DNA of 64,000 bases from Calditrichia bacterium (lineage in GTDB: Bacteria; Calditrichota; Calditrichia; JAJRVZ01), in contig CAVZSQ010000017.1 of the NCBI GenBank assembly GCA_963777955.1, positions 64,001-128,000 on the forward strand, written 5' to 3'. The notes under the pieces are model-generated. The model did no database searches. It was not told the DNA's origin and worked only from the letters and a program-made list of their open reading frames with translations. Below are positions 35,891 to 52,730 of the stretch, piece after piece (the first letter of the stretch is position 1; each line of letters starts with the position of its first letter). The translations under genes and the position numbers were made by a program.

Positions 35891-38800
35891 ATGAATATTA
35901 AGGGGCAATACCAAAAGAGTTTTATACTTGTTGTTGTCGTACTGATTTACTTTTTGCACCTCTCGACACTTTATGCCCAGAAAGCCAGTGCAGAATTTAT
36001 CTCTACTATTATTCCCTCAAACTTAAATACGGGCCAGCAAGTCAAAGACGGCGTGCAAAATCTTACCTACAAGGACAATATTCTGTATGTAGTTAATGTT
36101 TGGGCTGGTATCCAGGTAATCGATGTGAGCAATGTTTATAAACCGAAAGAGATTGGACGTTATCAGAATGAACATCGCGCCCATAATTTATTCATCGATG
36201 ATAATTATGGCTACCTCTCCGATGAACTGGAAGGGGTCAGTATTCTGGACCTTTCCAATCCCACAGCCATCTCCCGCGTAGGCAAAATTCCCACTGAAGG
36301 TAATGCCTGGTGGGTCGAAGCGAACTTTCCTTATGTTTATATCGCCGAAGAAGAACGGGGAGTTACCGTATACAATATAACGGATGTGACCAATCCGATG
36401 CTCATCGGCAATTATGACACCCCCGGTTGGACCTGGGGATTGAATGTGCAGGGTGATTATGTATATGTAGCCGATAAAACCGGTGGACTATTGATCCTCG
36501 ACTTTACCGTAAAAGAATCCCCCGTCTTAGTCGGTCAATTCAAAGAACCCAGGCAGGCCAAAACGATCCAGATCGAAGATAATTATCTTTACCTTACCGA
36601 CGGACCCAATGGATTATTTATTCTTGATATCACCAATCCAAAATTCCCTGCTCTGGTCAGCCGGGTTAAAAGCGAAGGTTTTATTTTCAACGTTTTTAAA
36701 AGCGGAAAATACGCTTATCTGGCCAATGAATCTTTACGCCGTCTGGATATAGTCAGTTTAACCGATATAAAGAAGCCGGTTCTCGAAGCGAGTTATCAGG
36801 CGGACGATAAAATTTACAGCGTCTGGAAAAAGGATGTGTACGTTTTTGTCGCGGCTAATAGCAAGACGCTTATCCTGCGGCATAATAATCCTCCCGTACT
36901 GGCGGAAATTCCGGCCCAGACTGTTGATGAACAACAAGTACTTACAATTAAACCCGAAGGATATGATCCTGACGGCGATCCCATCTTCTATCGTGTAAAA
37001 AGTTTGCCTGACGGCGCCAGGTTCGATAGCACCAGCGGTGCTTTTAGCTGGACCCCGACGTATGATCAATCCGGACTCTATAAGAATGTAACGATCAGCA
37101 TCATTGAAAAAACAGATAGTAAACTGGCCACCAGTCAGACTTTTGATATTACGGTACAACATGTAAATCGCGCACCGGCACTTCCGGAAGTGGAAAATTA
37201 TACGGTTAGTGAAAATCAATCCCTCAGTTTTGAAATTAAAGAAGGGAGTGATCCGGATAAAGAGGATAAAGGTAAACTTGCCTACACCACCGAGAATTTG
37301 CCCGAGGGCGCAGTTTTTGATTCCCTGAAAAGAAAATTTACCTGGACGCCCAATTTTGACCAGTCCGGAACATATGCCCTCGATTTCATCGTCAAAGATC
37401 CCCCCGGTGCAACTGCCCGCGATGCCTCTACCATTACCGTGCTCCATGTGGATCGTAAACCGGTAATTGCGGCGATTGAAAATAAAACAGTTGACGAAAA
37501 TCAGAGTATGGAATTTACTGTCGAAGGCAGCGATCCGGATAAGGAGGATCAGAATATTATCGCTTACTCGGCCCGGAATCTGCCTAAAGGCGCTGTGTTT
37601 ACCGCTGCCAGACAACAGTTTGCCTGGACCCCATCCTATGACCAGGCCGGTGAATATCCAGACCTGTTATTTATCATTACCGCCGGTAAACAATCTGATT
37701 CGACCATGATGAATATTACCGTCAATAATATGAGCCGGCCACCTGTTCTGGAATCTATTGCAGCAAAAACCATCGATGAACAAAAACTCCTGTCTTTCAT
37801 GGTCAGTGCTACCGATCCTGATGCCGAAGATCAGCAGCGCCTGAAATTCACCGCACAGAATTTACCCCCGGGGGCAAAATTCAGCGCCGACTCGCTGCGT
37901 TTTAACTGGACCCCATCCTACGACCAGGCCGGCAGTTATGCGGAGATTTCCATAACGGTGACCGATCCTTTCGGTTTGAGTGACTCAAAATCTTTTACTA
38001 TTAATGTAAATAACATCAACCGGCCGCCGGTGCTGGCAGAAATACCGGCACAGATTGTGGACGAGGATAAACCATTGACCTTTACGGTGACCGGCAGCGA
38101 TCCCGATAAAGAGGATCAGGATAAATTAAAATACAGCGCAAAACAATTGCCGGCCGGAGCAACCCTGACAGATAACGTTTTTAACTGGACACCCGGTTAT
38201 GATCAATCAGGAGATTATGCGCCGCAAATTTCAATATCGGATGGTATCCTGTCAGATACAAAAACCGCGCAAATTACAGTAAAACACGTTAACCGTCCTC
38301 CTACCCTTGAACCGGTCATTGCCAAAACGGTCGATGAGAATAAAATTTTAGAATTTAAAATTACCGCCGGCGATCCGGATAAAGAAGATACCGGCCTGTG
38401 GAAATTAACCGTTGCCCAGTTACCTGAGGGCGCGGTTTTTGATCCGGCCACGGCTGATTTCAGCTGGACACCTAATTTTGACCAGTCAGGCCTGTATACA
38501 CTGAAGTTCACCAATACCGATCCGGCTGGATTGATTGCCGCCGAGGATGTTCAGGTAACCGTCAATCATGTAAACCGTACCCCTGTTTTCAATATCCTGA
38601 CCGCCCAGCCATTGGAAGAAAATACGCCTTTCAGTATGAACATCCCTGCCGGCGAGGATCCGGATAAAGAAGATGCGCAAAAATTGATTTATGCTGCACA
38701 AAATTTGCCGGAAGGTGCGACTTTTGACGCTGTGTCCCGCACCCTGTCCTGGACACCTTCCTATGCTCAGGCCGGTCAATACAATCTGAACATTTCATGC

Positions 38801-40031
38801 AGTGACGGCCCCTTCAGCGTAAAGCAACCTCTGAATCTGACAGTGAACAACATAAATCGTCCACCGGAAATCCAGTCGATCGCCGATCAAACAGTTGACG
38901 AAAATCAGGAACTTAATCTGCAGGTTATTTTCAGCGATCCCGACGAAGAAGATCAGGGCAAAATCCAATTAACAGCACTTAATATACCTGCCGGTGTGGA
39001 ATTTAATGATATAAACGGTGAACTGAGGCTGGAAACCTACATATGTACAGGCCGGAGTATATAATAATATTGAAATGACGGCAACCGATCCCGGTGGATT
39101 AATGATCAAGAAAAGTTTTAACATCACCGTTAATAATGTGAACAGACCGCCGTTGGTCAAACCGCTGGTCAAAACCACCATTGCCGAGAATACTCCTGTC
39201 AGCGTTACTGCCGAGGCGACAGATCCGGATCAGGAAGATGCCGGTAAATTACAATTTTCAGGCGATAATCTTCCCGCTGGAGCCACTCTGGAGCCCTCCG
39301 GCGGCACCTTCTCCTGGACCCCTGATTTTACCCAGGCCGGTGAATATACCGTCAATTTAAAAGTGACTGATAGCGGTAATCTGAGTGCTGAAACACCCCT
39401 GGCACTTTCGATCACCAATGTGAATCGTAATCCGGTTATCCAGCCTGTAGAAACCAAAGATATAAATGAAAATGAAACGGTAAAATTGAGTATAGCCGCC
39501 ACTGACGAAGATAAGGATGACCGCTTAAAATTCTCACTTGAAGAAGCACCACGTGGTGCTTCGATCAATGAGACCAGCGGCGAGTTGTCCTGGACTCCCG
39601 ATTATACCCAAGCGGGTGAATATGCATTTAAGGTTAAAGTCAACGATGGTACAATCGATGATGTCGCTATTGTAACCATAAATGTAAATAACGTAAATCG
39701 CAAACCTGATATTCAGGGTGTCAGTCCGGTGACAGCCACCGTCGGCGAATCTATTGAACTTAGTTTTAATGGTTCCGATCCTGACAATGATAAATTGACC
39801 TACCAGGTCTCGGGTTTACCGGCTGGCGCCAATTTTGACGTCAACAGCGGAAAATTCAGTTGGCAGCCGGGCGCTGACCAGGCCGGCTCATATAAATTTA
39901 CCGTAACCGTTTCCGACGGCACCGATTCGGCTGAGACGACAGCCGGCATCACGGTCAATCCGGCGGCAGTACCACCACCTGAACCCGTTCCGCCTGAATC
40001 AGCGCCACCGGAACAACCATCAACTCCGTAG
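35891..40031 (+). CDS. Large secreted protein: LVIVD propeller, 11 cadherin/He_PIG-like Ig repeats and Pro-rich tail; frameshifted near 39030
   Basis: LVIVD repeats (YVYVAD..GLLILD); ~95-aa repeats NRPP..DPDKED..LPxGA..FSWTPxYDQxG continue in ORF 39075-40031. Confidence 0.85.
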
Positions 40032-41169: not shown

Positions 41170-41193
41170 GTCTAACTTAATTATATGTTAGGC
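41170..41193 (+). other. attI-like (or collapsed attC) site at the array head
   Basis: GTCTAAC-N10-GTTAGGC; the GTTAGGC pairs with the R'' of cassette 1. Confidence 0.5.
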
Positions 41194-41907: not shown

Positions 41908-42023
41908 GCCTAACACCGCAGTCCAGCGGACCCGCCTGAGGCGGGCCGGTTATACCTGGTCGATAAGCCGACCGCTTGTGGTCGGCTTATCGGCGCGGCG
42001 GCTTTTCCGTCGCGCCGTTAGAA
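41908..42023 (+). repeat. attC-like site 1 (compound: 61-bp site to GATAAGC 41968, then two extra hairpins to GTTAGAA)
   Basis: GCCTAAC..CCCGCC-TGA-GGCGGG..GGTC-GATAAGC; GCTTATC..GTTAGAA. Confidence 0.8.
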
Positions 42024-42035
42024 TTTGGAGGTTTT

Positions 42036-42445
42036 ATGAGATCTGTTATTTTCTTAGAATTGTGTGTATTGCTTTGTTTATTATTTGGTTGTAATCCAAG
42101 TTATGTTAGTATGACACCAGAGCAAAGAAAAGAGCAATCCATTAAAGACTATGAGACAACTCAAAAAATGATAAATGAAGGGAAAATTACTTTTGAAGGT
42201 GGGGATGGTTCTTCAGAAGAAAATGCAATCATAATAAAGGGTACAACTAAGTCAAAATATGGTATAAAAGTCGAGTACATATATATTATGATGAAGCATA
42301 GTAATGGAGATAATGATTGGGAAATTATATCACAAGCTCTGGAGGAAATGATAGAAAAAAATATGATATATTCACTATAAAGAATAAAAAAACAGACGAA
42401 GAAAAAATATATTGTTTTGACATTACTAAATATTTTGGCAGATAG
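42036..42445 (+). CDS. Cassette: lipoprotein, frameshifted near 42345
   Basis: GGAGG RBS, LFGC lipobox, GGDGSSEENAIII; other frame ends IYCFDITKYFGR*. Confidence 0.65.
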
Positions 42446-42470: not shown

Positions 42471-42610
42471 TTCGCGAATTCATGTTTGAGTCCGGCAATA
42501 GCCGGACGAGTTTGAATTCGTCGAAGGTCTTTTTGCCTACTTTTTGGCCAGTCAAAAAGTCAGCCGCCGGAGGCGGAATAAGTTTATAAGAAATCAAATT
42601 TGGCTCTAAC
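42471..42610 (+). repeat. Structured non-coding element, copy A
   Basis: TTCGCGAATTCA-TGTTTGA-GTCCGGC-AATA-GCCGGAC-GAGTT-TGAATTCG; ACTTTTTG..CAAAAAGT; CGCC-GGA-GGCG; tail to CTCTAAC. Confidence 0.85.
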
Positions 42611-42702
42611 ACCACGCTCAAGTAGAGGACAACGAACCGGTTGAACGTGAATTGTAAAATGTGTGGAAATCGGTTTACGCCGGCTACCGTTGGTCGTTAG
42701 GT
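42604..42702 (+). repeat. attC-like site 2 (long class)
   Basis: CTCTAAC..GTTAGGT, 99 bp. Confidence 0.7.
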
Positions 42703-42723
42703 AGAAAAATTGAGGTGAAAAAT

Positions 42724-43264
42724 ATGTTTATCAAAAAGAATTTCTATTTTTGGATATTAATCATGTTTCTATTATTAAACTCAAATAATTTTGCTCAGGA
42801 TACACTTAATTATAGGCATTATAATTTTGGATTCGGAGTTACCTTACTAAAAGATTATACGTTTTATTTCCCGATATTTATTACAAATAATATCAAAATG
42901 GAACCGGAACTCTACTATCGTCGTGATTCAGATCCTTATCATGATCAGGAAAGTACAGAGTTAGAAATTGGTACAGGATTATTTTATTCGCGGCACTATT
43001 CTCAATTAAATATTTATTCGGGTTTGAGAGCGGTCTATAGTTTTTATAATAGCTGGGACAAGTATGAGGGAATCGAACTTGGTCCGACTTTAGGGGGTGA
43101 GTATTTTTTAGTCTGCTCGTTTCAGTCTTGGCACTGAAATGCAACTTAAATATTATCATCATAGGTACTCTTCCAGAAATGACCGCCAAGTTCCCCTTAA
43201 AGGTGTTACGAGAAGTGGTATCTGGACATATGCTTATTTCATTATGAGAATTTATTTGTTTTAA
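42724..43264 (+). CDS. Cassette: small outer-membrane beta-barrel-like protein, frameshifted near 43110
   Basis: Signal peptide, aromatic beta-strands, GPTLGGEYF; other frame ends MRIYLF*. Confidence 0.55.
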
Positions 43265-43290
43265 TTTTACAATTAAATATTTAGGTACTT

Positions 43291-43352
43291 GTCTATCAAG
43301 CGCTTTAAATCGAACCCGCCTTTGGCGGGCCGGTTATACCTGGTCGATAGAA
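43291..43352 (+). repeat. attC-like site 3 (ATC/GAT core variant)
   Basis: GTCTATC..CCCGCC-TTT-GGCGGG-CCGGTTATACCTGGTC-GATAGAA, 62 bp. Confidence 0.7.
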
Positions 43353-43541
43353 GTGGAGAATATTTGAGAAGAATTAATTATAGATAGAATTGGTTTTGAA
43401 GTTCGCGAATTCATGTTTGAGTCCGGCAGTAGCCGGGCGAGTTTGAATTCGCGAAGGGTTTTTTTGCCTACTTTTTGACCAGACAAAAAGTAGGTCGCCG
43501 AAGGCGAAATAGTTATATAATTAATTAATTTTGGCTCTAAC
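43346..43541 (+). repeat. Structured non-coding element, copy B (gene-less cassette)
   Basis: Fills the whole interval between attC3 and attC4; perfect hairpins including CCTACTTTTTG/CAAAAAGTAGG and CGCC-GAA-GGCG. Confidence 0.85.
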
Positions 43542-43628
43542 AAACATTTGTTGTGGACGCCGAACCGACCAGCTTGAAATATAGAATATGCTAAGCCATC
43601 AGGCGCCTGTGACTTTTTGTCATTAAAC
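43535..43628 (+). repeat. attC-like site 4 (long class, ATT right end)
   Basis: CTCTAAC-AAACATTTG..GTGACTTTTTGTC-ATTAAAC. Confidence 0.6.
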
Positions 43629-43640
43629 TTAGGACAATTT

Positions 43641-44085
43641 ATGAGAATATTTTATCTTTTAATTGTGCTTATTTCATTTTTTTCGAAAATCTTTGCTCAA
43701 ACTGAATCTGATTCTATTACTGTAACTGCGCTCGCCAGATCAGAAATTTCAATAATACAACTATTAGCTGATCTGGGGAAAATATCATAATTATGAGATC
43801 ATTGTTTCCGGATTTATGCACTTAAATTTTGAAGATCATGCTATTTATTTTTCCAAAAATCATGCAGATTTTTTGATTGGATCTGATGCTTTTTGGATTG
43901 ATTTTTCTGATACAGTAAAAGTTTTCGATATGGATATTAGTAATTCTAAAGTTGTTGGATTGAAAGATTTGAAAAATTTGAATAATAAATATGTAACTCT
44001 AAAAGGAATTTTTAATAAAAATAATAATGGACATCTAGCTTCATACTCAGGTGCTATAGAAAATATTACTGAAATACATGAGTGA
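43641..44085 (+). CDS. Cassette: secreted hypothetical protein, frameshifted near 43780
   Basis: AGGA RBS and signal peptide MRIFYLLIVLISFF; continues into ORF 43816-44085. Confidence 0.55.
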
Positions 44086-44177
44086 TTTAAAGACGGTATG
44101 ATGGATCTAAAGAATTAATTGGTATTGATAAAGCAACCGGTAAACTCGTACCTCTTGATTCAACAACAAATAAATAA

Positions 44178-44273
44178 GTCTAACCTGGGTATAAAGTTAA
44201 ACCTTCACGCGCCGGCTTTTCGCTAAGTTAAGTTATGTCAAGCGTTCGATCAACTTATACTTTGCAGATAAGC
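44178..44273 (+). repeat. attC-like site 5 (distinct sequence type, GAT right end)
   Basis: GTCTAAC..GTATAAAGTT..AACTTATAC..GATAAGC, 96 bp. Confidence 0.6.
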
Positions 44274-44304
44274 CCATTAATTAAAAATAAATTATTATAA
44301 AAAA

Positions 44305-44921
44305 ATGATTATTGAGACAAATACGATCAAATTAACTGAATTTAGTTAAAATGATGTCAAAGATATTATAAATCAATTAAATAATTCAAACTGTGAAATT
44401 ATAATTTTAGGTAAATCAAAATACGAATTTATTCAAGGTGCAAATAATGAGAATAAAGAATTTCAAATAGAAATTAGTGAACAAAAAAATAATGTGATAG
44501 AGTTCGTCGAACAATTAGATACATTTTATAATTAATGAAGTCAAAACACTTTTTATTCAATATTATAGAAATGATTCGACTTGGACTGAGAAATTTAAAA
44601 TGGAAGATTATATTAATAAGAAATGGTTACTTTTTAAGTGATAGTGCTAGAAAGGTATGCTTAATATTTGGTGCAATTTTACTCGTGGTGTACTTCGCTA
44701 TTCGTATAAATATTCCTGATAGTTCGTTAAGAAATATTTTGGGATTAAAGTGGTACTATTATCTGACCATATGTTGAAGTTTAATTTCTCTTGGGACTGG
44801 TCATGAGTTAAAAAACTTGAAAAATAATGAGGGAAATAACCAGGTTTATACAGTTGGAACGTGGATTGCGACAGCAATTTTACTTATAGTAAGTTTTTTG
44901 TCATTAGTTGGCATCATTTAA
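44305..44921 (+). pseudogene. Cassette: fragmented membrane-protein ORF
   Basis: Several short AT-rich + strand fragments with hydrophobic stretches, ending in TAA just before attC6. Confidence 0.4.
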
Positions 44922-45000
44922 ATCTATCACCGGCCTCAACCAGATTCTGGCTTTGCCTGCCTGGCGACAGGTCGGGGCCGGTTATGCCTGGTCGTTAAAG
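44922..45000 (+). repeat. attC-like site 6 (ATC left end)
   Basis: ATCTATC-ACCGGCCTCAACC..CCGGTTATGCCTGGTC-GTTAAAG. Confidence 0.7.
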
Positions 45001-45167
45001 GTGGAAAATATTTGAGAAGAATTAATTAAAAATAGAATTGGTTTTGAAGTTCGGTAGCCGGACGAGTTTGAATTGGTCGCAGATCCTTTTGCTGACTTTT
45101 TGGCCAGTCAAAAAGTAAGCCGCCGGAGGCGGGAATAAGTTTATAAGAAATCAAATTTGGCTCTAAC
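44994..45167 (+). repeat. Structured non-coding element, copy C (gene-less cassette; left arm of hairpin 1 deleted)
   Basis: Same leader (GTGGAAAATATTTGAGAAGAATTAATT) as copies B and E; same tail as copy A. Confidence 0.8.
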
Positions 45168-45257
45168 AAACATTTGTAGTGGACGGCGAACCGACAAGCA
45201 AGAATTGTAAATTTTGTGGTAAGTGGCTTACCACCACTAAAATATACCATCGCAAGG
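45161..45257 (+). repeat. attC-like site 7 (long class, degenerate right end)
   Basis: CTCTAAC-AAACATTTGTAGTGG..CCACTAAAATATACC; interior nearly identical to site 17. Confidence 0.6.
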
Positions 45258-45282
45258 TAACTTTATTTTTCATTAGGAATCT

Positions 45283-45822
45283 ATGGAGACAGATCTTAAG
45301 AAGATAAAGCATTTCGGCGAAAGACGTAGGAGAGAAAATTTTGCTTTTCGAGCATTTTTGAAAAACCTTGATATCAGTACAAAGAAATTAGATACACTTG
45401 TTTGTACTATTTTTCATGAAGTTTCATCTCAAATTGATTGTAAGAAATGTGCCAATTGCTGTAAACAGATGAAAATTATTTTAACAAATCAAGATATAAG
45501 AAGATTAGCAGATGGGCTAGATCTTCAATTAAAATCATTTAAAAACCAATACACAAGTTTAAGTGAAGATAAATCTGAGATCTATTTTAGTAAAATACCA
45601 TGTCCACTTTTAAAAGATAATCTTTGCTCAAAATATAAGTTCAGACCTACAGATTGTCGTTCATTTCCTCATCTGGAAAAACGAATATTTGTGTCAAGAC
45701 TCTGGGATGTTGTAGATAATTATTCGATCTGCCCGATTGTTTTTAATGTATATGAAATTCTCAAGAATAATTTATGTCCATATAAGGAATATGATATTTA
45801 TAACGAATATGAAATGTATTAA
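45283..45822 (+). CDS. Cassette: YkgJ-family cysteine cluster protein
   Basis: CKKCANCC..CPLL..CSKY..RPTDCRSFP. Confidence 0.85.
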   Translation: METDLKKIKHFGERRRRENFAFRAFLKNLDISTKKLDTLVCTIFHEVSSQIDCKKCANCCKQMKIILTNQDIRRLADGLDLQLKSFKNQYTSLSEDKSEIYFSKIPCPLLKDNLCSKYKFRPTDCRSFPHLEKRIFVSRLWDVVDNYSICPIVFNVYEILKNNLCPYKEYDIYNEYEMY

Positions 45823-45827
45823 AATCT

Positions 45828-45914
45828 ACCTAACAAGTGCTTCAAATCGGACGCCGAACCAATAAGCATGAATTGCTAAATTGGTGTGACGGCTCTTCCG
45901 CCGCGCCGTTAGAC
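45828..45914 (+). repeat. attC-like site 8
   Basis: ACCTAAC..GGACGCCGAACC..GCGCC-GTTAGAC. Confidence 0.75.
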
Positions 45915-45943
45915 GCGCTTTCATATTAAAAATCAATTTATAT

Positions 45944-45972
45944 TTGAAATAGCAAAAGAAAACCCATAAAAT
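45944..45972 (+). promoter_or_regulatory. sigma70-like promoter of the DUF4160/DUF2442 cassette
   Basis: TTGAAA-17 bp-TAAAAT, with ATG 5 nt downstream. Confidence 0.6.
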
Positions 45973-45977
45973 TATAT

Positions 45978-46229
45978 ATGCCTACGATTCTTTTTATAGA
46001 TGGGTGGCGTTTTTTCTTCTACTCAAATGAGAAGAGGGAACCCATACATGTTCATGTGCAGAAGGGAGAGAAAGAGTGCAAATATTGGTTGGATCGTATT
46101 AATTTTGAAGTTACCGAAGCGTATTCATTTCAAATGAATAATAGAGACAAACGTATAGTAAAAAAGATTATATTTGAATACTTTGAAGTGATTGAAAAAG
46201 AATGGGACAAGTTTCAAGAGAGTAAATAA
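45978..46229 (+). CDS. Cassette: DUF4160 family protein (putative TA component)
   Basis: MPTI..GWRFFFYSNE..EPIHVHV..KYWL. Confidence 0.85.
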   Translation: MPTILFIDGWRFFFYSNEKREPIHVHVQKGEKECKYWLDRINFEVTEAYSFQMNNRDKRIVKKIIFEYFEVIEKEWDKFQESK

Positions 46230-46230
46230 A

Positions 46231-46494
46231 ATGAAAATATATCATCGTATAAAGAATATTCGATTTCAAGAGGATAGACTTGTAATCAATATTGATAATA
46301 AAAATTATTCGTTTGAATTAATAAAAATATCCAAAAAGTTGCTGAATGCCACAAAAAAAGATAGAAATCAATATATTATTTCTCCATCAGGTTATGGAAT
46401 TAATTGGCCGACGTTAGAAGAAGATCTATCAATAGATGGATTGTTAGGAATAATTCATAAACCAACAGCAGTAAAGAAACAGCTATCATTTTAA
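46231..46494 (+). CDS. Cassette: DUF2442 family protein (putative TA partner)
   Basis: LLNAT..R..Y.ISPSGYGINWPTLEEDLSIDGLL. Confidence 0.85.
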   Translation: MKIYHRIKNIRFQEDRLVINIDNKNYSFELIKISKKLLNATKKDRNQYIISPSGYGINWPTLEEDLSIDGLLGIIHKPTAVKKQLSF

Positions 46495-46499
46495 GGTAC

Positions 46500-46562
46500 G
46501 TCTAACACCGGCCTCAACCGAATCCCGACAAAGTCGGGACCGATTATGCCGCGCCGTTAGAA
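46500..46562 (+). repeat. attC-like site 9 (short class)
   Basis: GTCTAAC..TCCCGAC-AAA-GTCGGGA..GTTAGAA, 63 bp. Confidence 0.85.
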
Positions 46563-46566
46563 GGAA

Positions 46567-46980
46567 ATGAGAATGGGAACACTACTTCATAAATGCATGG
46601 TTAAGGCGACAATTAAAGAAGGTGAGAAGATTCGTAGTTCATTGAATTGGGCTTTTTCACGAAGAGAAATGCTTTATGTGATGTCTGATTCATTAAGATG
46701 CGGTGATTGGGAAATACCGTATTCGGAAATCGAGGATTCAAAAATTTATTCTGTACCATGGCTTTTTACTAATGCCTATGTACTTGTAGTGAAAATCAAG
46801 GGACAAATATATCAATTTGGATTAAATCCAGGACGATTTTGGAAAGGAGATCTTCCTTTTCCAGTGAAACGAGAAACTCTAGATAATCGATATTGGAATA
46901 TTGTTAATCTTATCAGAATTATTATATTTGGTCTCTTAGCTTATTGGATCATAAATGAAATAATTAAAAAATACTTCTAA
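46567..46980 (+). CDS. Cassette: hypothetical protein with C-terminal TM
   Basis: Starts 4 nt after R'; stop TAA lies within R'' TTCTAAC. Confidence 0.75.
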   Translation: MRMGTLLHKCMVKATIKEGEKIRSSLNWAFSRREMLYVMSDSLRCGDWEIPYSEIEDSKIYSVPWLFTNAYVLVVKIKGQIYQFGLNPGRFWKGDLPFPVKRETLDNRYWNIVNLIRIIIFGLLAYWIINEIIKKYF

Positions 46981-47069
46981 CAATGGCATCAACCGGACGC
47001 CCAGCCGACTAGCGTGAATTGCTAAAATATGTTAAGTGGCTGGTCGCCGGTTATGCCTGGTCGGCGGAC
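46975..47069 (+). repeat. attC-like site 10 (long class; right end G|GCGGAC)
   Basis: TTCTAAC..CCGGTTATGCCTGGTCG followed directly by GC-rich DNA; interior near-identical to site 13. Confidence 0.7.
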
Positions 47070-47089
47070 AGAGGGATCAGAGCAAGCGC

Positions 47090-47503
47090 ATGTGGTTGAC
47101 CGACGGGATACGTAGCCTCGTTGCCCGATACAGGTTCAATCGGACCTATGGGCGGCACCTGGGTGTCCTGTCGGTCACGGACGAGAAGCTGGCGCTCGGC
47201 CGCTACCGCTTGCATGGCACGACGACCGTTCTCGAGAACGACTGGCGCGTACCCTGGCAGAAGATCAGAAAGATCCAAGCGTACAAGCGGGACTGCTATA
47301 TCGTGGACCTCATCTGTCTCGCCCTCGAAACCGAAGATGGCCGGCAGTTCGAGGTCAACGAGGAGATGGATGGCTGGCGGGAGATGCAGGGCGCACTGGC
47401 GGCACGGTTCGGAATCCAAGAGGACGCGTGGTTCGTAGAGGTCGCTGTTCCCGCGTTCGCGACGAATCTGAAGACACTCTGGGCACGTGAAGGAGAAGCG
47501 TAG
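47090..47503 (+). CDS. GC-rich hypothetical protein (foreign insert)
   Basis: ATG at 47090 within ORF 47036-47503; W..I..I.AYKRD..DLICL..E.NEEMDGW; about 60% GC by eye versus about 30% in neighbours. Confidence 0.65.
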   Translation: MWLTDGIRSLVARYRFNRTYGRHLGVLSVTDEKLALGRYRLHGTTTVLENDWRVPWQKIRKIQAYKRDCYIVDLICLALETEDGRQFEVNEEMDGWREMQGALAARFGIQEDAWFVEVAVPAFATNLKTLWAREGEA

Positions 47504-47511
47504 GTGGCATT

Positions 47512-47554
47512 CACCGGAGGCGGAATAAGTCAAAACTAATAAATTAACTCTAAC
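47512..47554 (+). repeat. Structured non-coding element, copy D (3' fragment only)
   Basis: CACCGGAGGCGGAATAAG..CTCTAAC matches the tail of copies A and C. Confidence 0.65.
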
Positions 47555-47608
47555 ACTTCAGTCCACAGGACCTGCTTTAAGCAGGCCGGTGACTTTCGGT
47601 CATTAGTA
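47548..47608 (+). repeat. attC-like site 11 (short class, ATT right end)
   Basis: CTCTAAC..CCTGCTT-T-AAGCAGG..GTGACTTTCGGTC-ATTAGTA. Confidence 0.7.
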
Positions 47609-47625
47609 TACATTTTAGGAGAGAT

Positions 47626-48174
47626 ATGACAAAATCCTTCATTTCTATTTTAGTTATACTTCTATTTTATTCATGTTCAAAACCGATAGCGAATCTACAA
47701 CCCACTCAAAATGGAAGCTATTTCATAAAAGATTTCGGTTTTGAAATTACTTTACCTGAAAGTTGGATTCACAGCGAGGTAACAAGAAACGGCTCTGTTA
47801 CAGATTATAATTTTGTAAGAAAAGGAATTAAAGACAATACTGGATTATTAGTTTCACCATTTATTGGTATTATGTGTGAAAAGGTTACGAAGGATTTAAA
47901 TGTTCTTTTTTATTCAATGGCAAAAAGAGCACAATTTGTACCTTGGAATTTAGAAACTGTACTTACTGCTGAGAGTAAGGATTTCCCACTTGTGTATGGA
48001 ATTGGGTATATCGGTACATATAATGATGCAAACAATTTAGAACATAAAATTATTATTCTACATATGATAAATGACACAAATGGAATTCAAATAATAATTG
48101 ATGGGACTACTTCAATTTATGAAATCATGAAAAATGAATATTTAAGTATTATTTCATCAATTGTTTTAAAATAG
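47626..48174 (+). CDS. Cassette: lipoprotein (PsbP-like fold possible)
   Basis: AGGAG RBS, FYSC lipobox, FGFEITLPESW. Confidence 0.7.
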   Translation: MTKSFISILVILLFYSCSKPIANLQPTQNGSYFIKDFGFEITLPESWIHSEVTRNGSVTDYNFVRKGIKDNTGLLVSPFIGIMCEKVTKDLNVLFYSMAKRAQFVPWNLETVLTAESKDFPLVYGIGYIGTYNDANNLEHKIIILHMINDTNGIQIIIDGTTSIYEIMKNEYLSIISSIVLK

Positions 48175-48180
48175 TATGAA

Positions 48181-48241
48181 TGCTAACACTGGCCCCAACC
48201 GGACCTGCCTGAAGCAGGCCGGTTATGCCTGGTCGATAGAA
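48181..48241 (+). repeat. attC-like site 12 (short class, GAT right end)
   Basis: TGCTAAC..CCTGC..GCAGG-CCGGTTATGCCTGGTC-GATAGAA, 61 bp. Confidence 0.8.
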
Positions 48242-48250
48242 TGAAATAAG

Positions 48251-49096
48251 TTGAATTTATTGCCTATGCAAGACTATCAATATAGTAAAATGGCTAGAAA
48301 GAAATTTGCATATACTGTAATATATCTCCTAATATTATTTCATATTCTTGTGCTTATAATTATCCCAGTACTATTCGCTACTAATAAAGAGTTTGGATCA
48401 CAGGTACAAGGCGTTGTACATGGGTATATTGTATTTTATAATGCTATGATTGAGTGGGAGAATATGTACTTGGTTTTAGTTATGTGTAGCGCAATAGTTA
48501 TTGCAATAGTCGTTGAACTAATATTATTAATAATTCAGTATAATATTCACCAAATAAAATTAAAGAAAATAATAATTATAGTTTCCACTTGCTTTACAAT
48601 AGTTACAATTGATTTTATATTAGAGCACCCAACATTATTAGGATATGATATATTATTTCCGAAGTCAATTATTACTAAGTATGAATATGCATCGAATGAG
48701 TATAATAATTCTCTTGCTCCTGAAGACAAATATGAAATATACAACTTACTTATCAAATTCCCTTCTGATGTTTTTATATATGATAGTCTTCATAATAATG
48801 CTGGATTTAGGGGTTTATGGAGGCAGTACAGTATACCAATTGATCCCGATGTCCAAAGTATATTTAGAGAATATTGGGCGAAAACCAATGGTAAAGGTAA
48901 ATTTATTTCGAAATATTCATTAGAAGATCATGGTTGTCGTTTTGTATTTTCTCCAATAAAAAAAATTGGAAATAAAATAATTATAGGATGTGCGTATACA
49001 TGTGCTCCGCTTATAGGAAAAGGTTGGTATAGTGAAATAGAGAAAGTCAATAATAAATGGATTATTATAAAAGAACATCTTCTATGGGTATCTTAA
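48251..49096 (+). CDS. Cassette: membrane protein (3 TM plus soluble C-terminal domain); start uncertain
   Basis: Hydrophobic N-half; CAYTCAPLIGKG..W.I...WVS C-terminus. Confidence 0.65.
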   Translation: MNLLPMQDYQYSKMARKKFAYTVIYLLILFHILVLIIIPVLFATNKEFGSQVQGVVHGYIVFYNAMIEWENMYLVLVMCSAIVIAIVVELILLIIQYNIHQIKLKKIIIIVSTCFTIVTIDFILEHPTLLGYDILFPKSIITKYEYASNEYNNSLAPEDKYEIYNLLIKFPSDVFIYDSLHNNAGFRGLWRQYSIPIDPDVQSIFREYWAKTNGKGKFISKYSLEDHGCRFVFSPIKKIGNKIIIGCAYTCAPLIGKGWYSEIEKVNNKWIIIKEHLLWVS

Positions 49097-49214
49097 ACGT
49101 TATACAACTAAAATCGTTATATGAAATAAAAGTAATATATAAAAACAAATTGCCGGATTAATATCAATTAATTCTGATGACTAACAAAATTATGCTGATA
49201 TAATTGATTTTATT

Positions 49215-49309
49215 TACTAACACCGGCCTCAACCGGACGCCCAGCCGACTAGAGTGAAATGCTAAGTTGGGTTAAGTGGCTGGTCGCCGGTTATCCCTGG
49301 TCGATAGAA
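49215..49309 (+). repeat. attC-like site 13 (long class, GAT right end)
   Basis: TACTAAC-ACCGGCCTCAACCGG..CCGGTTATCCCTGGTC-GATAGAA, 95 bp. Confidence 0.8.
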
Positions 49310-49560
49310 GTGGAAAATATTTGAGGAGAATTAATTAAAAATAGAATTGGTTTTGAAGTTCGCGAATTCATGTTTGAGTCCGGCAGTAGCCGGACGAGTT
49401 TGAATTCGTCGCAAATTTTTTTGCCTGTTCCTCGCTAGAGTTTATCCCGTTGAAAAACGGGACGGGGACAAGTTTTGGCCAGACAATAAAAATGCCCCCG
49501 CGAAAGCGGGGGTAGGCCGCCGGAGGCGAAATAATTCTAAATTACACGAATTTGACTCTA
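49303..49560 (+). repeat. Structured non-coding element, copy E, with two internal palindromic insertions
   Basis: Leader and hairpin 1 as in copy B; extra TCCCGTT-GAAA-AACGGGA and CCCCCGC-GAAA-GCGGGGG; ends at CTCTA without an attC. Confidence 0.8.
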
Positions 49561-49573
49561 CGGATCAACGGGT

Positions 49574-49962
49574 ATGACTAAACAGCAAGCGATTTCCGTC
49601 GCAACATTGAAGGCAATTGTTGATGCGTTCAACGCCCACGACCTGGACGCCATCATGGAGTTCTTTGCCGACGATTGCTCGTTAGACATGCCTCGGGGAC
49701 CGGATCCCTGGGGTAAACCTTCACGGGCAAAGCAGCCGTGCGAGAAGGCTTAGCGATACGCTTCAAGGATCTCCCGGACGTTCACTACAGTGACGACCGG
49801 CACTGGGTCAGCGGCAACATGGGCATGTCCGAATGGCTACTAACCGGCACAACGCCCGACGGAGTCCGAATTGAGGTACGTGGATGCGACCATTGGGAAT
49901 TCCGAGAAGGGAAGGTAATTAAGAAAGACTCGTACTGGAAGATCGTTGATAAATCCCTGTGA
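49574..49962 (+). CDS. GC-rich SnoaL/NTF2-like protein, frameshifted near 49715
   Basis: DAFNAHDLDAIMEFFADDC..G..AVREG..EW.LTGT..GCD..F..GKV..KDSYWK. Confidence 0.8.
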
Positions 49963-49971
49963 GTGTCAGCG

Positions 49972-50000
49972 CTCTAACATGATATGTAAGTGTGAACCCG
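49972..50000 (+). repeat. Truncated attC-like left end (site 14)
   Basis: CTCTAAC 9 nt after the SnoaL stop; no matching right end found. Confidence 0.35.
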
Positions 50001-50009
50001 AAGCATAGT

Positions 50010-50743
50010 AGATTTATAAATTATTGGCTTATTTCTTTATTATGATGATCAGATTGATGAGCCTTAAAGAATCATCCAAAATTTTGGAAAAATTTATGGA
50101 GAAGGTAAGTTTGTTTTTTATCTTCGCTAAAGGCTTCAAAGGGTGAATGCCGACTTCTAGGCGATTATTTTCCACGGCGACAGTTTAACCCTAATGATTC
50201 TGTAACAGTCGGTTTTGAGATGTGGTATGAGTTTTATCACGGCTAACCGTAATAGTATTTCGACCATAAAGGAAAAGCAGGATGTCGACGAGCGTATCTC
50301 ACATTCATTACTTTTCAACCAGATCGAATGAAGTAATTTTCATTACAGGTTCGTTTCAATCATGGATTTTAGGGGATGGAATAAATTAACATTATATGTG
50401 GCCTATAAGATTATCGATTTAAAGATGCTGCAAGATAGAATACTTTATGAATTCAGTTCAAGGATTAATGAAGAATTGTCACCCATTACCATTGGTCGTG
50501 GTGTGATATCATGTATATTTTATACAAGTATAATGGACATTTTGGGAAATTTACCATGGTTCCTCCGTGCATCCAAATTTATGCGCCACAATATTATTGC
50601 AATAATTGCAAAAGATACTACGCTCCCACAGATGTCATTTCAGCGAAACTAGAAGGTATTATTATTTATTTGGATATAGAATATCTGAAAATGATCAAGA
50701 TAGAATATTATTTTCAAATATTTTTGATGTTGTTAAAGAATAA
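50010..50743 (+). pseudogene. Heavily disrupted paralog of the cassette-1 lipoprotein
   Basis: Fragments GKIYG, GDSLTL, HWSWCDIMY..YKY, APQ, AKDTT and YRISENDQDR..NIFDVVKE* parallel 41212-41901; the 3' flank also matches. Confidence 0.65.
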
Positions 50744-50749
50744 AGGTTC

Positions 50750-50811
50750 GCCGATCACCTTAGTCCACTGGATCCCGACCTGTCGGGGCTAGTGACTTTC
50801 GGTCGTTGGGC
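50750..50811 (+). repeat. attC-like site 15 (short class, GCCGATC left end)
   Basis: GCCGATC..AGTCCACTGG..CCCGAC-CT-GTCGGG..AGTGACTTTCGGTC-GTTGGGC. Confidence 0.7.
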
Positions 50812-50831
50812 ACTAGTAAATAGAGATATAT

Positions 50832-51200
50832 ATGAAATCCTACACACCGATAAACTTAAAAGAAAAACTATTAAAAATAGGGGAATTGTGGTCCCCGAAA
50901 GTAATTGCAGAGATAAATGATTACCAAATAAAATTAGTAAATATAATGGGTGAATTTGTCTGGCATGACCATAAAGAAACCGATGAAGTGTTTATTGTCC
51001 TTTCTGGTGAGATGATTATTGAATTTAGGGATGGTATAGCCCACCTTAATACAGGTGAGTTATTTGTTGTTAAAAAAGGAATCGAACATCGTCCTCGAGC
51101 AAAAGATATCTGTAAAATCATGGTAATAGAGCCTCGGGATGTAGTAAATACTGGTGATGCTGGGGGTACATTAACTGCACAAAATAATATATGGATCTAG
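50832..51200 (+). CDS. Cassette: cupin-domain protein
   Basis: WSPKVIAEIN..GEFVWHDH..DEVF..GELFVV.KGIEHRP. Confidence 0.9.
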   Translation: MKSYTPINLKEKLLKIGELWSPKVIAEINDYQIKLVNIMGEFVWHDHKETDEVFIVLSGEMIIEFRDGIAHLNTGELFVVKKGIEHRPRAKDICKIMVIEPRDVVNTGDAGGTLTAQNNIWI

Positions 51201-51231
51201 CGCCAGAACGTTAAAATTAAAATTAATTGGA

Positions 51232-51388
51232 TTGTCCCGTCAGGGACAAAATATTTGTGGAAAAACAATGTCACCCTAATTTATGTATAGTGCCGTCAGG
51301 CCTGGCGGGAAATATGTCGTCCCTGGCGGGACTACAACAAATTATGGGAGATTTTTCGATCTAGAAATATTTCATCCCTGACGGGATG
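51232..51388. repeat. REP/BIME-like palindrome cluster in a gene-less cassette
   Basis: TTGTCCC-GTCA-GGGACAA (51232), GTCCC-TGGC-GGGAC (51319), CATCCC-TGAC-GGGATG (51373); outer copies inverted with a shared AAATATTT flank. Confidence 0.7.
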
Positions 51389-51443
51389 TTGATTGATAAT
51401 CATTAATATTTAATTACGTTAAAAAAGGGAATCTTTGCATTGC

Positions 51444-51505
51444 GTCTAACACCGCAGTCCACTGGGTCCGCCAGCTGGCGGGCCAGTGACTTTCGGTAGT
51501 TAGAC
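51444..51505 (+). repeat. attC-like site 16 (short class)
   Basis: GTCTAAC-ACCGCAGTCCACTGG..CCAGTGACTTTCGGTA-GTTAGAC, 62 bp. Confidence 0.85.
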
Positions 51506-51699
51506 TTGGAACTTATTTATAGAAGGATAAAATTTCTCGGGGTTTTTTGAATTTGGCGAATTTATGTTTGAGTCCGGCGTAAGCCGGACGAGTTTAAATT
51601 CGCCTTGATTTTTTGCTTACTTTTTGATCAAGCAAAAAGTAAGCCGCCGGAGGCATTAAAACGAATTTAGATATATAAATATGAAAGCCAAATCCTAAC
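51499..51699 (+). repeat. Structured non-coding element, copy F (divergent gene-less cassette)
   Basis: GGCGAATTTA-TGTTTGA-GTCCGGC-GTAA-GCCGGAC-GAGTT-TAAATTCGCC; GCTTACTTTTTG..CAAAAAGTAAGC; GCC-GGA-GGC; different leader and tail. Confidence 0.85.
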
Positions 51700-51787
51700 A
51701 CCGGCCTAAACCGGACGCCGAACCGACTAGCATGAAATGTAAATTTTGTGGTAAGTGGTTCGCCGCCACTAAAATGTACCGTTAAAA
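51693..51787 (+). repeat. attC-like site 17 (long class)
   Basis: TCCTAAC..CCACTAAAATGTACC-GTTAAAA, 95 bp. Confidence 0.75.
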
Positions 51788-51856: not shown

Positions 51857-52105
51857 GTGCTAATGAAAACTATAAGTGTAACAAATGCAAGATCTAAACT
51901 ATATAAATTATTGGACGAAACAAATACTTCCGGCGAACCAATTCAGATTACCGGAAAACGATCAAACGGGATATTGATTTCAGAGGCTGATTGGCGAGCC
52001 ATTAGCGAGACCTTATTTCTCTTATCTATACCTGGTATGCGTGAATCTATTCGGAAAGGATTGAAGGAACCTATTGAAAAATGTGCGCCGGAGATTAAAT
52101 GGTAA
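51857..52105 (+). CDS. yefM: Cassette: Phd/YefM antitoxin
   Basis: SVTNARSKLYKLLDE..PIQITGKR..ETLFLLSIPGMRESI. Confidence 0.9.
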   Translation: MLMKTISVTNARSKLYKLLDETNTSGEPIQITGKRSNGILISEADWRAISETLFLLSIPGMRESIRKGLKEPIEKCAPEIKW

Positions 52106-52365
52106 AATGGAAGCTGGTTTATACGAAACAGGCTCAAAAAGATGCAAAAAAAATATCAGCGGTAAATCTTGAGGAAAAAGCTATTGAGGTTCTAAAAATC
52201 CTTGCCGAGAATCCATTTAAGTCCTCTCCAGCGTATGAAAAACTTGTTGGTGACTTGACGGGAGCATATTCCAGAAGAATCAATATTCAACATAGAGTTG
52301 TTTATCAAATATACGAGAAAGAACATATTGTAAAAATTATTCGGATGTGGACGCATTACGAATAA
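52099..52365 (+). CDS. yoeB: Cassette: Txe/YoeB toxin
   Basis: NPF..YEKLVGDLTGAYSRRINIQHRVVY..MWTHYE. Confidence 0.92.
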   Translation: MVKWKLVYTKQAQKDAKKISAVNLEEKAIEVLKILAENPFKSSPAYEKLVGDLTGAYSRRINIQHRVVYQIYEKEHIVKIIRMWTHYE

Positions 52366-52570: not shown

Positions 52571-52730
52571 CCTGGTAACTTAATTGTTCAAGATTATAAT
52601 CAGTTCAACAGCTTTGAGGATAAAGTCCATTGGGATTTTCTTGAAGAATATGAATTAATTAGTAAATTAACATATAAGTGGAAAATTTTAAATGTGAATT
52701 AAGGATTGATTTGTTTGGGGAGAATGTAAA

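What the first reader, a model, noticed from the sequence alone, without database searches (positions are those of the whole stretch)
42471..51699. A conserved three-hairpin non-coding element carried as gene-less integron cassettes (6 copies)
Seen: a ~105-nt core recurs in copies A 42471, B 43346, C 44994, E 49303 and F 51499, with a 3' fragment at D 47512. Hairpin 1 has an invariant internal loop TGTTTGA/GAGTT beside the stem GTCCGGC-N4-GCCGGAC. A T-run follows, then hairpin 2 (ACTTTTTG..CAAAAAGT) and hairpin 3 (GCC-GRA-GGC). Copy F shows compensatory changes: AATTCA/TGAATT becomes AATTTA/TAAATT, TCGCGAA/TTCGCGA becomes GGCGAA/TTCGCC, and CCTAC/GTAGG becomes CTTAC/GTAAG. Its leader and tail are unrelated to the other copies, so the fold appears conserved rather than the flanking sequence. 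Every copy has the same orientation and ends 35-45 nt before an attC left end; B, C and F fill an entire cassette. Known: C(GNA)G triloops are unusually stable in ssDNA, and attC sites recombine as folded ssDNA. Inference: this is a cassette-borne ncRNA, an ssDNA signal such as an attC-associated non-autonomous element, or a transcription-punctuation module. I cannot assign it to a named family.
Basis: partly seen in the sequence, partly recalled or inferred. Interest (0 to 1): 0.88.

Follow-up and report, generated by a model that had tools for sequence, protein, structure and literature searches.

The report
Triple-helix repeat riding integron cassettes
The repeated element is real but not special to integrons: it belongs to a widespread, uncatalogued bacterial repeat that ends in a predicted knotted triple helix, and in this one genus it has been packaged as gene-less integron cassettes.

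Summary
The ~105-nt element is real and its stems covary. It is not integron-specific: the genome holds 21 strong copies, 13 not beside an attC. Relatives occur between ordinary genes, in all four orientations, in Bacteroidota, Gammaproteobacteria and other Calditrichota. No Rfam family matches.

The T-run and hairpin 2 form an H-type pseudoknot with a pyrimidine triple helix whose three strands change together across lineages. The same 3' module ends extended TwoAYGGAY elements, and this scan noted such modules before on other DNA.

The cassette link is real but local: 8 of 21 copies sit 22-36 nt before an attC, and the link was seen only in this genus and close metagenomic relatives. Copy C lacks the TGTTTGA arm, E has lost its attC, and D is a remnant. 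No partner enzyme or RNA run was found.

Best reading: a non-autonomous structured repeat that travels as a passenger, here carried by the integron. Whether it acts as RNA or ssDNA is open.

The parts
41171..41193 (+). attI-like site heading the array; no intI in the window
   Evidence: Motif at 41175-41187 followed by GTTAGGC. The same motif lies beside intI on contig C20 and on C21 and in L241. The attI assignment is inferred.
42471..42576 (+). Copy A: full core behind an ORF cassette (probably two cassettes fused by loss of an attC)
   Evidence: R1 118.6 bits; ORF 41976-42380; fusion is inferred
42604..42702 (+). attC behind A, decayed
   Evidence: HMM 61.9 bits (training member); bottom-strand fold z 0.21
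43347..43628 (+). Gene-less cassette B: ~56-nt leader, core 43402-43506, ~31-nt tail, attC 43535-43628 (degenerate R')
44995..45258 (+). Gene-less cassette C: core with the 5' arm and TGTTTGA deleted, attC 45161-45258
47512..47608 (+). Copy D: hairpin-3 remnant, tail and attC 47548-47608 behind a foreign ORF
49304..49563 (+). Cassette E: B-type leader, core 49359-49529 with two hairpin inserts (about 49427-49472 and 49492-49511); attC lost after an R''-like remnant
51500..51787 (+). Gene-less cassette F: unrelated leader and tail, core 51553-51655, attC 51693-51787
51553..51604 (+). Hairpin 1 (shown for F): basal stem, TGTTTGAG/CGAGTT loop with tandem G.A, exchangeable tip hairpin
51604..51644 (+). 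Predicted pseudoknot-triplex (shown for F): CTTGAT 51604-09 pairs with loop ATCAAG 51627-32; third strand T 51610-14; turn 51615-20; pyrimidine arm 51621-25; purine arm 51634-38
   Evidence: Sequence; cross-lineage covariation; the fold itself is inferred, not measured
51645..51654 (+). Hairpin 3 with a C(GGA)G loop; present in this family of Calditrichota, Pontibacter and TwoAYGGAY elements, absent in several lineages

Best explanation
The element is one lineage's version of a widespread, multi-copy, non-coding repeat. Its plus strand folds into a tandem-G.A hairpin, an H-type pseudoknot with about five Y.R-Y base triples, and a small end hairpin. It encodes no enzyme and travels as a passenger.

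SHOWN: the copies, their dispersal, stem covariation, three-strand covariation across lineages, a 3' module shared with extended TwoAYGGAY, different carriers in different lineages (inverted-repeat frames in Arcicella, Flectobacillus and Calditrichota G045/G059; attC cassettes in this genus), and strong attC adjacency here.

INFERRED: (i) the fold is kept because it is the recognition or processing signal of an unlinked, trans-acting mobiliser that works on a single strand, as REP/REPIN repeats are for RAYT or SRM repeats for Ssn nucleases. (ii) In this genus a few copies acquired an attC; IntI then duplicated and shuffled them, while the AT-rich leaders, tails and attC sites drifted. (iii) Any effect on array expression is secondary.

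I put the identity (dispersed pseudoknot-triplex repeat captured as cassettes) at about 0.85 and the selfish-signal mechanism at about 0.45. RNA versus ssDNA as the working form is about even.
For: 21 copies at E<1e-9, 13 not at an attC. 80 copies fall in all orientation classes: 24 +E+, 20 +E-, 15 -E-, 13 -E+, 8 incomplete. Copy number is patchy: 25 of 86 phylum genomes. Flanking inverted repeats in 29 of 112 scan copies, and one frame holds unrelated cargoes. Third-strand position 5 in the parse of 140 copies (121 reach this position): C.G-C 19, T.A-T 100, T.G-C 2, C.A-T 0. With TwoAYGGAY loci added, a C is matched at position 4 or 5 in 16 of 139 copies, absent in 117 and discordant in 6; run lengths correlate, rho 0.80. 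Linker-loop pairing 4.05 against 3.08+-0.12 bp for swapped partners (88 combinations). R1 hits the 3' end of 15 of 26 TwoAYGGAY-type loci at E<=0.02. Tip loops are DNA-hairpin type: GNA 63, GNYA 15, GNNNA 46, GNRA 3, UNCG 0 of 165. The element is parasitised like REPs: an IS110 sits inside one Arcicella copy, and hairpin inserts occur in E.
Against: No mobiliser was found. Element within 1.5 kb of the gene: 0 of 47 Y1 loci, 0 of 30 DDE, 0 of 4 TnpB-like, 2 of 30 GIY-YIG, 2 of 8 IS110 (one an insertion into the element). No clean filled/empty pair and no target duplication. Two copies persist at orthologous sites in G000 and G001, and cores stay intact where the attC has decayed; both fit host-level selection as well. 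All 45 copies of the own class and metagenome group carry only T.A-T, so the triplex cannot be tested by covariation there, and positions 6-7 do not covary. The pseudoknot is only 3-4 bp in A/B-type copies and mismatched in C23. Kin are not independent in any of these counts. The tip hairpin is shared with an SRM-like repeat in this genome (5 hits outside the copies, 4 in that context), so the loop census may not describe the whole element.
Confidence: 0.5

Rival explanations
1. Host-useful RNA module. In read-through transcripts the pseudoknot-triplex acts as a 3' stability cap or roadblock, and the cassette form is a shuffleable punctuation mark for the array.
For: [quoted passage not shown] Strand bias G.T over A.C: 15:3 in helix 1 and 35:12 at the turn. 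All 15 attC-linked copies parsed lie on the transcribed strand. 49 of 78 scan copies are co-oriented with the upstream ORF. Cores outlast their attC. The shared module sits in elements whose AYGGAY loops are proposed Csr/Rsm sites (preprint).
Against: 13 of 80 copies lie between divergent genes and 15 face against both neighbours. RNA-type GNRA/UNCG loops are nearly absent (3 of 165). Copy numbers vary wildly. The terminator scan is at chance level (11 against 7.4+-2.4), and its hits on the element lie on the minus strand.
Confidence: 0.25
2. One reading: a stand-alone ncRNA gene with its own promoter in the ~56-nt leader, carried as a cassette.
For: Leader lengths cluster at 56-58 or 21-23 nt and tails at 27-31 (11 of 15) or 37-41 nt (4 of 15). 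B, E and F leaders have borderline sigma-70-like hits (p 0.03-0.10). Gene-less Vibrio cassettes often have promoter activity (10.1101/2023.11.21.568050, passages).
Against: Only 6 of 34 leaders reach p<=0.1, median p 0.56. Promoter-like sites in the array number 50 against 46.6+-6.7 by chance. Solo copies share no leader with cassettes (1 of 17 at p<0.05).
Confidence: 0.1
3. An attC-targeting non-autonomous element, like IS1111-attC or group IIC-attC introns, that inserts next to attC sites.
For: 8 of 21 copies are at a narrow distance from an attC, as are 5 of 6 metagenomic copies. Both core subtypes occur in cassettes and alone.
Against: The element lies 27-41 nt upstream of R'', not inside the attC. 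No RT and no IS110 in G000 (92% complete). IntI passes its cut-off in 41 of 86 phylum genomes and the element is in 25, yet the hairpin-3-plus-R'' pattern rings in only 3 (6 hits in G000, 1 in G001, 1 unexamined in G079). Many tails are related (mean identity 0.56 against 0.45 shuffled), which points to descent. No empty leader-tail cassette was noticed.
Confidence: 0.08
4. Neutral debris. The arms covary through palindrome-driven template switching and gene conversion, with no selection on a fold.
For: Both strands fold about equally. Tips are swapped with other hairpin repeats. Broken copies (C, D, E) persist.
Against: Template switching repairs inverted repeats (established knowledge, recalled). 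It does not explain an invariant unpaired motif across phyla, linker-loop covariation, or mirror-register changes at matching distances from the turn.
Confidence: 0.07

Closest known systems
Extended TwoAYGGAY elements of Pseudomonadota (Rfam RF01731 core; bioRxiv 10.64898/2026.09.22.753630; outline, section 8 and passages read, figures and supplements not seen)
   Same: Multi-copy, copy-number-variable intergenic element with a 3' pseudoknot and end hairpin. Rfam-positive loci fetched here end in the same run-turn-arm-loop-arm module plus a CGCC..GGCG hairpin, and the Pseudomonas-type viral-contig loci also carry a GAG..CGAG hairpin.
   Different: No AYGGAY loops (0 of 21) and no RF01731 hit. 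The 5' domain is a single hairpin with TGTTTGAG/CGAGTT. The preprint's main text has 0 occurrences of 'triplex', 'attC' and 'integron'.
BoxC / PIT / TM intrastrand triplex repeats (PMC4666352; parts 1-2 of 10 read)
   Same: Dispersed bacterial repeat able to form a single-strand triplex. The plus strand has the class IV order: third strand, pyrimidine, purine.
   Different: A/T-rich rather than G/C-rich, pseudoknot-capped, and preceded by a second conserved hairpin. Only 2 of 21 copies meet the ITxF stem and loop limits as I coded them.
Gene-less (non-coding) integron cassettes of Vibrio (PMC1382264 passages; 10.1101/2023.11.21.568050 passages)
   Same: Paralogous non-coding cassettes repeated in an array and conserved between relatives; selfish or regulatory roles proposed.
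   Different: The Vibrio ones had no homologues outside vibrios. Here the cargo is a known-shape repeat that lives mostly outside integrons in many phyla.
REP/BIME/REPIN with RAYT, and SRM/NTS with Ssn nucleases (PMC11893778 passages; REP/RAYT otherwise recalled)
   Same: Extragenic hairpin repeats with DNA-type loops, patchy copy number, doublets, and IS110-family insertion into copies.
   Different: No cognate enzyme gene flanked by the element was found, and 0 of 21 copies match the SRM motif. It has a tertiary fold rather than a simple palindrome.
Telomerase-type pseudoknot triple helix and ENE stability elements (PMC7583470 passages)
   Same: H-type pseudoknot with major-groove U.A-U / C.G-C triples (architecture only).
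   Different: Bacterial repeat. No RNA, protein partner or function shown; no homology implied.

Membership tests
TwoAYGGAY (RF01731) | Two hairpins with AYGGAY loops on a basal stem; Rfam score | tested here: not met
   0 of 21 copies hold AYGGAY; no Rfam hit
Extended TwoAYGGAY superfamily | 3' pseudoknot plus terminal hairpin module | tested here: met
   Same module in Rfam-positive loci; R1 hits 15 of 26 at E<=0.02
Flavo-1 (RF01705) | Rfam model match | tested here: not met
   0 matches at E<=10 in G000; the first seed row shown is unlike the element
BoxC/PIT intrastrand triplex | Three tracts in triplex register | tested here: met
   (comparative only)
BoxC/PIT intrastrand triplex | Stems of 6-15 nt with loops of 1-6 nt; G/C-rich TM sequence | tested here: not met
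   2 of 21 pass; the element is A/T-rich
BoxC/PIT intrastrand triplex | Triplex formation in vitro | not testable with these tools
   needs CD, NMR or chemical probing
Gene-less integron cassette | Bounded by R' and an attC, with no ORF | tested here: met
   B, C, F; IntI on contig C20 in three frameshifted pieces
Gene-less integron cassette | attC still recombinogenic | tested here: inconclusive
   A and B attC fold no better than shuffles; C, F and D modestly; no excision seen
Promoter-bearing gene-less cassette | Promoter in the cassette | tested here: inconclusive
   Borderline for B, E, F; at chance overall
REP/REPIN-RAYT | Cognate Y1 transposase gene flanked by the repeat | tested here: not met
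   0 of 47 Y1 loci fetched; only 30 loci of several hundred matches were fetched
SRM/NTS-Ssn | SRM motif; flanks a small GIY-YIG gene | tested here: not met
   0 of 21 match SRM; 2 of 30 GIY-YIG loci have a copy nearby, none flanked on both sides
MITE | Terminal inverted repeats and target duplication | tested here: not met
   0 of 21 G000 copies above the shuffle 99th percentile; only short AT-rich direct repeats. Met by carrier frames in other lineages.
IS1111-attC / group IIC-attC intron | Insertion inside attC; IS110 recombinase or RT present | tested here: not met
   Lies 27-41 nt upstream of R''; no PF01548 or PF00078 hit in G000, 92% complete
TnpB omega-RNA / bridge or seek RNA | Adjacent nuclease or recombinase gene; variable guide matching targets | tested here: not met
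   0 of 4 TnpB-like loci; the variable 31-34-nt loops of other genera match their flanks only by chance-length words or neighbouring copies; genome-wide targets were not searched

The most novel reading that the evidence does not exclude
The element is a discrete single-stranded molecule, RNA or its DNA copy, with defined ends and a telomerase-like triple-helix knot near its 3' end. It was converted into integron cassettes several times independently, each time gaining an attC at a fixed distance behind the knot (27-31 or 37-41 nt). These cassettes would then be a natural record of how cassettes are made, with the knot marking where the attC is added.
Probability: 0.08. Interest if true: 0.9.

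Novelty: new variant of a known kind. Interest (0 to 1): 0.5.

Why it matters
It gives a gene-less cassette family an identifiable cargo. That cargo is a cross-phylum repeat with a comparatively supported pseudoknot triple helix, absent from Rfam 15 and not found in my paper searches. It links Bacteroidota and Calditrichota repeats to extended TwoAYGGAY elements and suggests that their 3' pseudoknot is a triplex. It also offers paired solo and cassette versions of one sequence for asking how cassettes arise. Interest is tempered because gene-less cassettes and triplex repeats are known kinds, this scan has already noted the module on other DNA, and the function is untested.

Tried and rejected
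Rfam at gathering and E-value thresholds on the window and on relatives: only chance hits. Flavo-1, my first guess from memory: rejected.

Leader-tail pairing or terminal inverted repeats in G000, which I first suspected: rejected, 0 of 21. Guide-like role of the variable loop: no support in flanks. Promoter and terminator roles: at chance. Solo copies as decayed cassettes: 3 of 15 tails at p<=0.05, so at most a minority.

Partner enzymes Y1, DDE_Tnp_1, GIY-YIG, IS110, TnpB-like and RT: none flanked by the element. The copy just behind intI on C20 is not repeated behind intI in G002, G004 or G007; G001's contig ends 23 nt past the gene. Filled/empty pairs against G001 and the family: none clean.

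Viral scans: 15 mostly chance hits and 0 for a stricter pattern. Plasmid and phage BLAST with cassette B: no match and one chance hit; an Arcicella copy hit one Ilyobacter plasmid.

Sequencing runs: no RNA holder listed. Two DNA runs with small share were laid as contigs; they show related element-tail-attC junctions but no excision, and are not used as evidence.

Motif searches in paper text gave only unrelated hits among the 30 of 111 listed. The supplements of PMC5737381 could not be read and those of the bioRxiv preprints are closed, so a description there cannot be excluded.

Full report
OBSERVATION. The copies are at the stated places and share one strand. A, B and F are complete, E has two hairpin inserts, C lacks the 5' arm with TGTTTGA, and D is only hairpin 3. 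A, B and F fold far better than shuffles on either strand as RNA, and B and F also as DNA. Nine insertion-free genome copies give 95.8% paired cells and 8 of 34 pairs with two-sided changes, above all 500 shuffles and all slid controls. The copies are related, so this is support, not a p-value.

SETTING. The window holds an integron-type array. It has an attI-like site at 41171-41193, about 15 attC hits, and toxin-antitoxin and small-gene cassettes, but no integrase. The genome has 48 attC-like hits on nine contigs by profiles trained on the window's own sites. Its integron integrase is on contig C20 in three frameshifted pieces, which may be real or an assembly error. B, C and F are gene-less cassettes. 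E has the B-type leader but no intact attC. The attC sites behind A and B no longer fold as one hairpin. The phylum, Calditrichota, is taken from earlier scan notes.

DISTRIBUTION. Model R1 finds 21 copies at E<1e-9 in the genome. Eight lie 22-36 nt from the model's end to an attC on the same strand, where random non-ORF placement gives p about 4e-16; 13 do not. The copies are not independent. R1 rings in 25 of 86 phylum genomes. R1 recognises 42 of the 43 loci tested. Motif counts were 47, 77, 44, 4 and 7 in five genomes, against 3, 1, 6, 2 and 2 for the control. Eighty copies fall in all four gene-orientation classes among unrelated genes. The element is therefore a dispersed repeat.

THE CASSETTE LINK IS LOCAL. 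Among 34 copies parsed from G000, G001 loci and five metagenome loci, 15 have an attC behind them, including 5 of the 6 metagenomic copies. The metagenome pattern was written for this lineage. Tails are 27-31 nt (11 copies) or 37-41 nt (4), and leaders of whole gene-less cassettes are 56-58 or 21-23 nt. Tail identity averages 0.56 against 0.45 shuffled and falls into roughly five or six groups. Both core subtypes occur in cassettes and alone. Across the phylum IntI passes its cut-off in 41 of 86 genomes, yet the hairpin-3-plus-R'' pattern rings in only 3: six hits in G000, one in G001 and one unexamined hit in G079. That pattern cannot see lineages lacking hairpin 3. Copies fetched from G002, G004, G005, G007 and G008 showed no attC with the G000-trained profiles. 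Elsewhere the core rides in inverted-repeat frames: 29 of 112 scan copies against 0 of 21 in G000. One such frame also holds unrelated cargoes.

The linker after hairpin 1 pairs with the loop of hairpin 2. In F this is CTTGAT with ATCAAG, and variants change both sides together. Over 88 linker-loop combinations the mean is 4.05 Watson-Crick pairs against 3.08+-0.12 when partners are swapped (maximum 3.39 in 200 swaps). The T-run mirrors the pyrimidine arm and matches the purine arm in parallel. At position 5 from the turn the counts are C.G-C 19, T.A-T 100, T.G-C 2 and C.A-T 0; position 4 gives 2 and 138 with no discordance; positions 6-7 do not covary (140 distinct copies). A second parse including TwoAYGGAY loci gives 16 matched C, 117 with none and 6 discordant of 139, in at least three named groups, with run lengths correlated at rho 0.80. 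The two parsers differ: the second missed the Pontibacter C variants that the first listed. Limits: the own class shows only T.A-T (45 of 45), the A/B-type pseudoknot is 3-4 bp, and one copy (C23) is mismatched. The fold is inferred by comparison and has not been measured.

RNA OR DNA. For the plus strand as the folded one: G.T outnumbers A.C 15:3 in helix 1 and 35:12 at the turn. [quoted passage not shown] For DNA: of 165 short tips, 63 are GNA, 15 GNYA, 46 GNNNA, 3 GNRA and 0 UNCG. The loop preferences are established knowledge, recalled. The tip is also shared with an SRM-like repeat in this genome, which weakens that argument. The question is open.

RELATION TO KNOWN THINGS. No Rfam family matches. 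Earlier scan notes pointed me to two papers, which I checked. The preprint 10.64898/2026.09.22.753630 (outline, section 8 and passages) describes extended TwoAYGGAY elements with a 3' pseudoknot and mobile-element-like copy variation; its main text has no 'triplex', 'attC' or 'integron'. Rfam-positive TwoAYGGAY loci fetched here end in the same module and end hairpin, and R1 hits 15 of 26 such loci at E<=0.02. Our copies have no AYGGAY loop (0 of 21). Gene-less paralogous cassettes are known from Vibrio (PMC1382264 and 10.1101/2023.11.21.568050, passages). Passages were also read in PMC5737381, PMC2864571 with supplement hits, PMC9723704, PMC11893778 and PMC11511950; none of them describes this element. 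Supplements that I could not see may.

MECHANISM. No enzyme gene is flanked by the element. Copies lay within 1.5 kb of 0 of 47 Y1, 0 of 30 DDE, 0 of 4 TnpB-like, 2 of 30 GIY-YIG and 2 of 8 IS110 loci, and G000 has no RT or IS110 hit. One IS110 sits inside an Arcicella copy, as a parasite. Promoter and terminator tests are at chance. The simplest account of a fold kept across phyla in dozens of randomly oriented, patchily distributed copies is that it serves the element's own spread through an unlinked single-strand-acting factor. The integron would be a second vehicle acquired in this genus. That step is inference. Persistence at orthologous sites and intact cores beside decayed attC sites leave room for a host-useful RNA role, the main rival.

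VERDICT. Real, and more structured than described, but less integron-specific. It is a new variant of known kinds (TwoAYGGAY-like and triplex repeats; gene-less cassettes), and this scan has noted the module on other DNA. Interest 0.5. The boldest open reading, repeated capture at fixed spacing as a record of cassette genesis, gets 0.08.

Noticed in passing
window 41171-41193; G000:C20:47803; G000:C21:182924; L241: The same attI-like motif heads cassette arrays at three genome sites, only one of them beside intI. These look like integrase-less satellite arrays that keep an attI.
   Followed up: partly
window 41963-42023; also G000:C20 and C27: A ~30-bp perfect-hairpin mini-cassette followed by a very short (~34-bp) attC-like site recurs, once as the first cassette after attI on C20.
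   Followed up: no
L545 (G062:C1:~404000-405400); L196: An IS110-family element is inserted at the third-strand/turn junction of the repeat in Arcicella; another copy has a 16-nt insert at the same spot.
   Followed up: partly
L273-L292 (G045, G059, G074): One inverted-repeat frame of 150-450 bp encloses at least three unrelated hairpin cargoes, one of them this element. No transposase with these ends was found.
   Followed up: partly
L359-L378, L209, L214, L217, L218, L222, L234: In other Calditrichota genera the tip of hairpin 1 is a 31-34-nt loop of near-constant length that varies between copies; no match to own flanks.
   Followed up: partly
L273, L222, L368: A longer family member has an extra ~45-nt segment between hairpin 1 and the pseudoknot-triplex.
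   Followed up: no
window 49427-49472 and 49492-49511; G000 C6, C15, C21, C27: Small hairpin inserts land repeatedly at the same two places of hairpin 2, the turn and the purine arm.
   Followed up: no
L005:1826-2066 (G000:C20): Two copies lie tail to tail directly behind the frameshifted intI and before an NfuA/IscA-like gene; the gene label is from its sequence look, not a family scan.
   Followed up: partly
window 45978-46494 and 51857-52365: Two toxin-antitoxin-type cassettes: DUF4160/DUF2442 and Phd/YefM-YoeB.
   Followed up: no
window 35891-40031: A large protein gene with about ten ~94-residue tandem repeats, split in two ORFs.
   Followed up: no
window 52672-52702: 31 nt resembling the B/E cassette leader (81%) with no core, ahead of a 490-aa gene just past the array.
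   Followed up: no
L240: A solo copy lies shortly upstream of a sequence that looks like a selenocysteine tRNA gene (by eye; not scanned).
   Followed up: no
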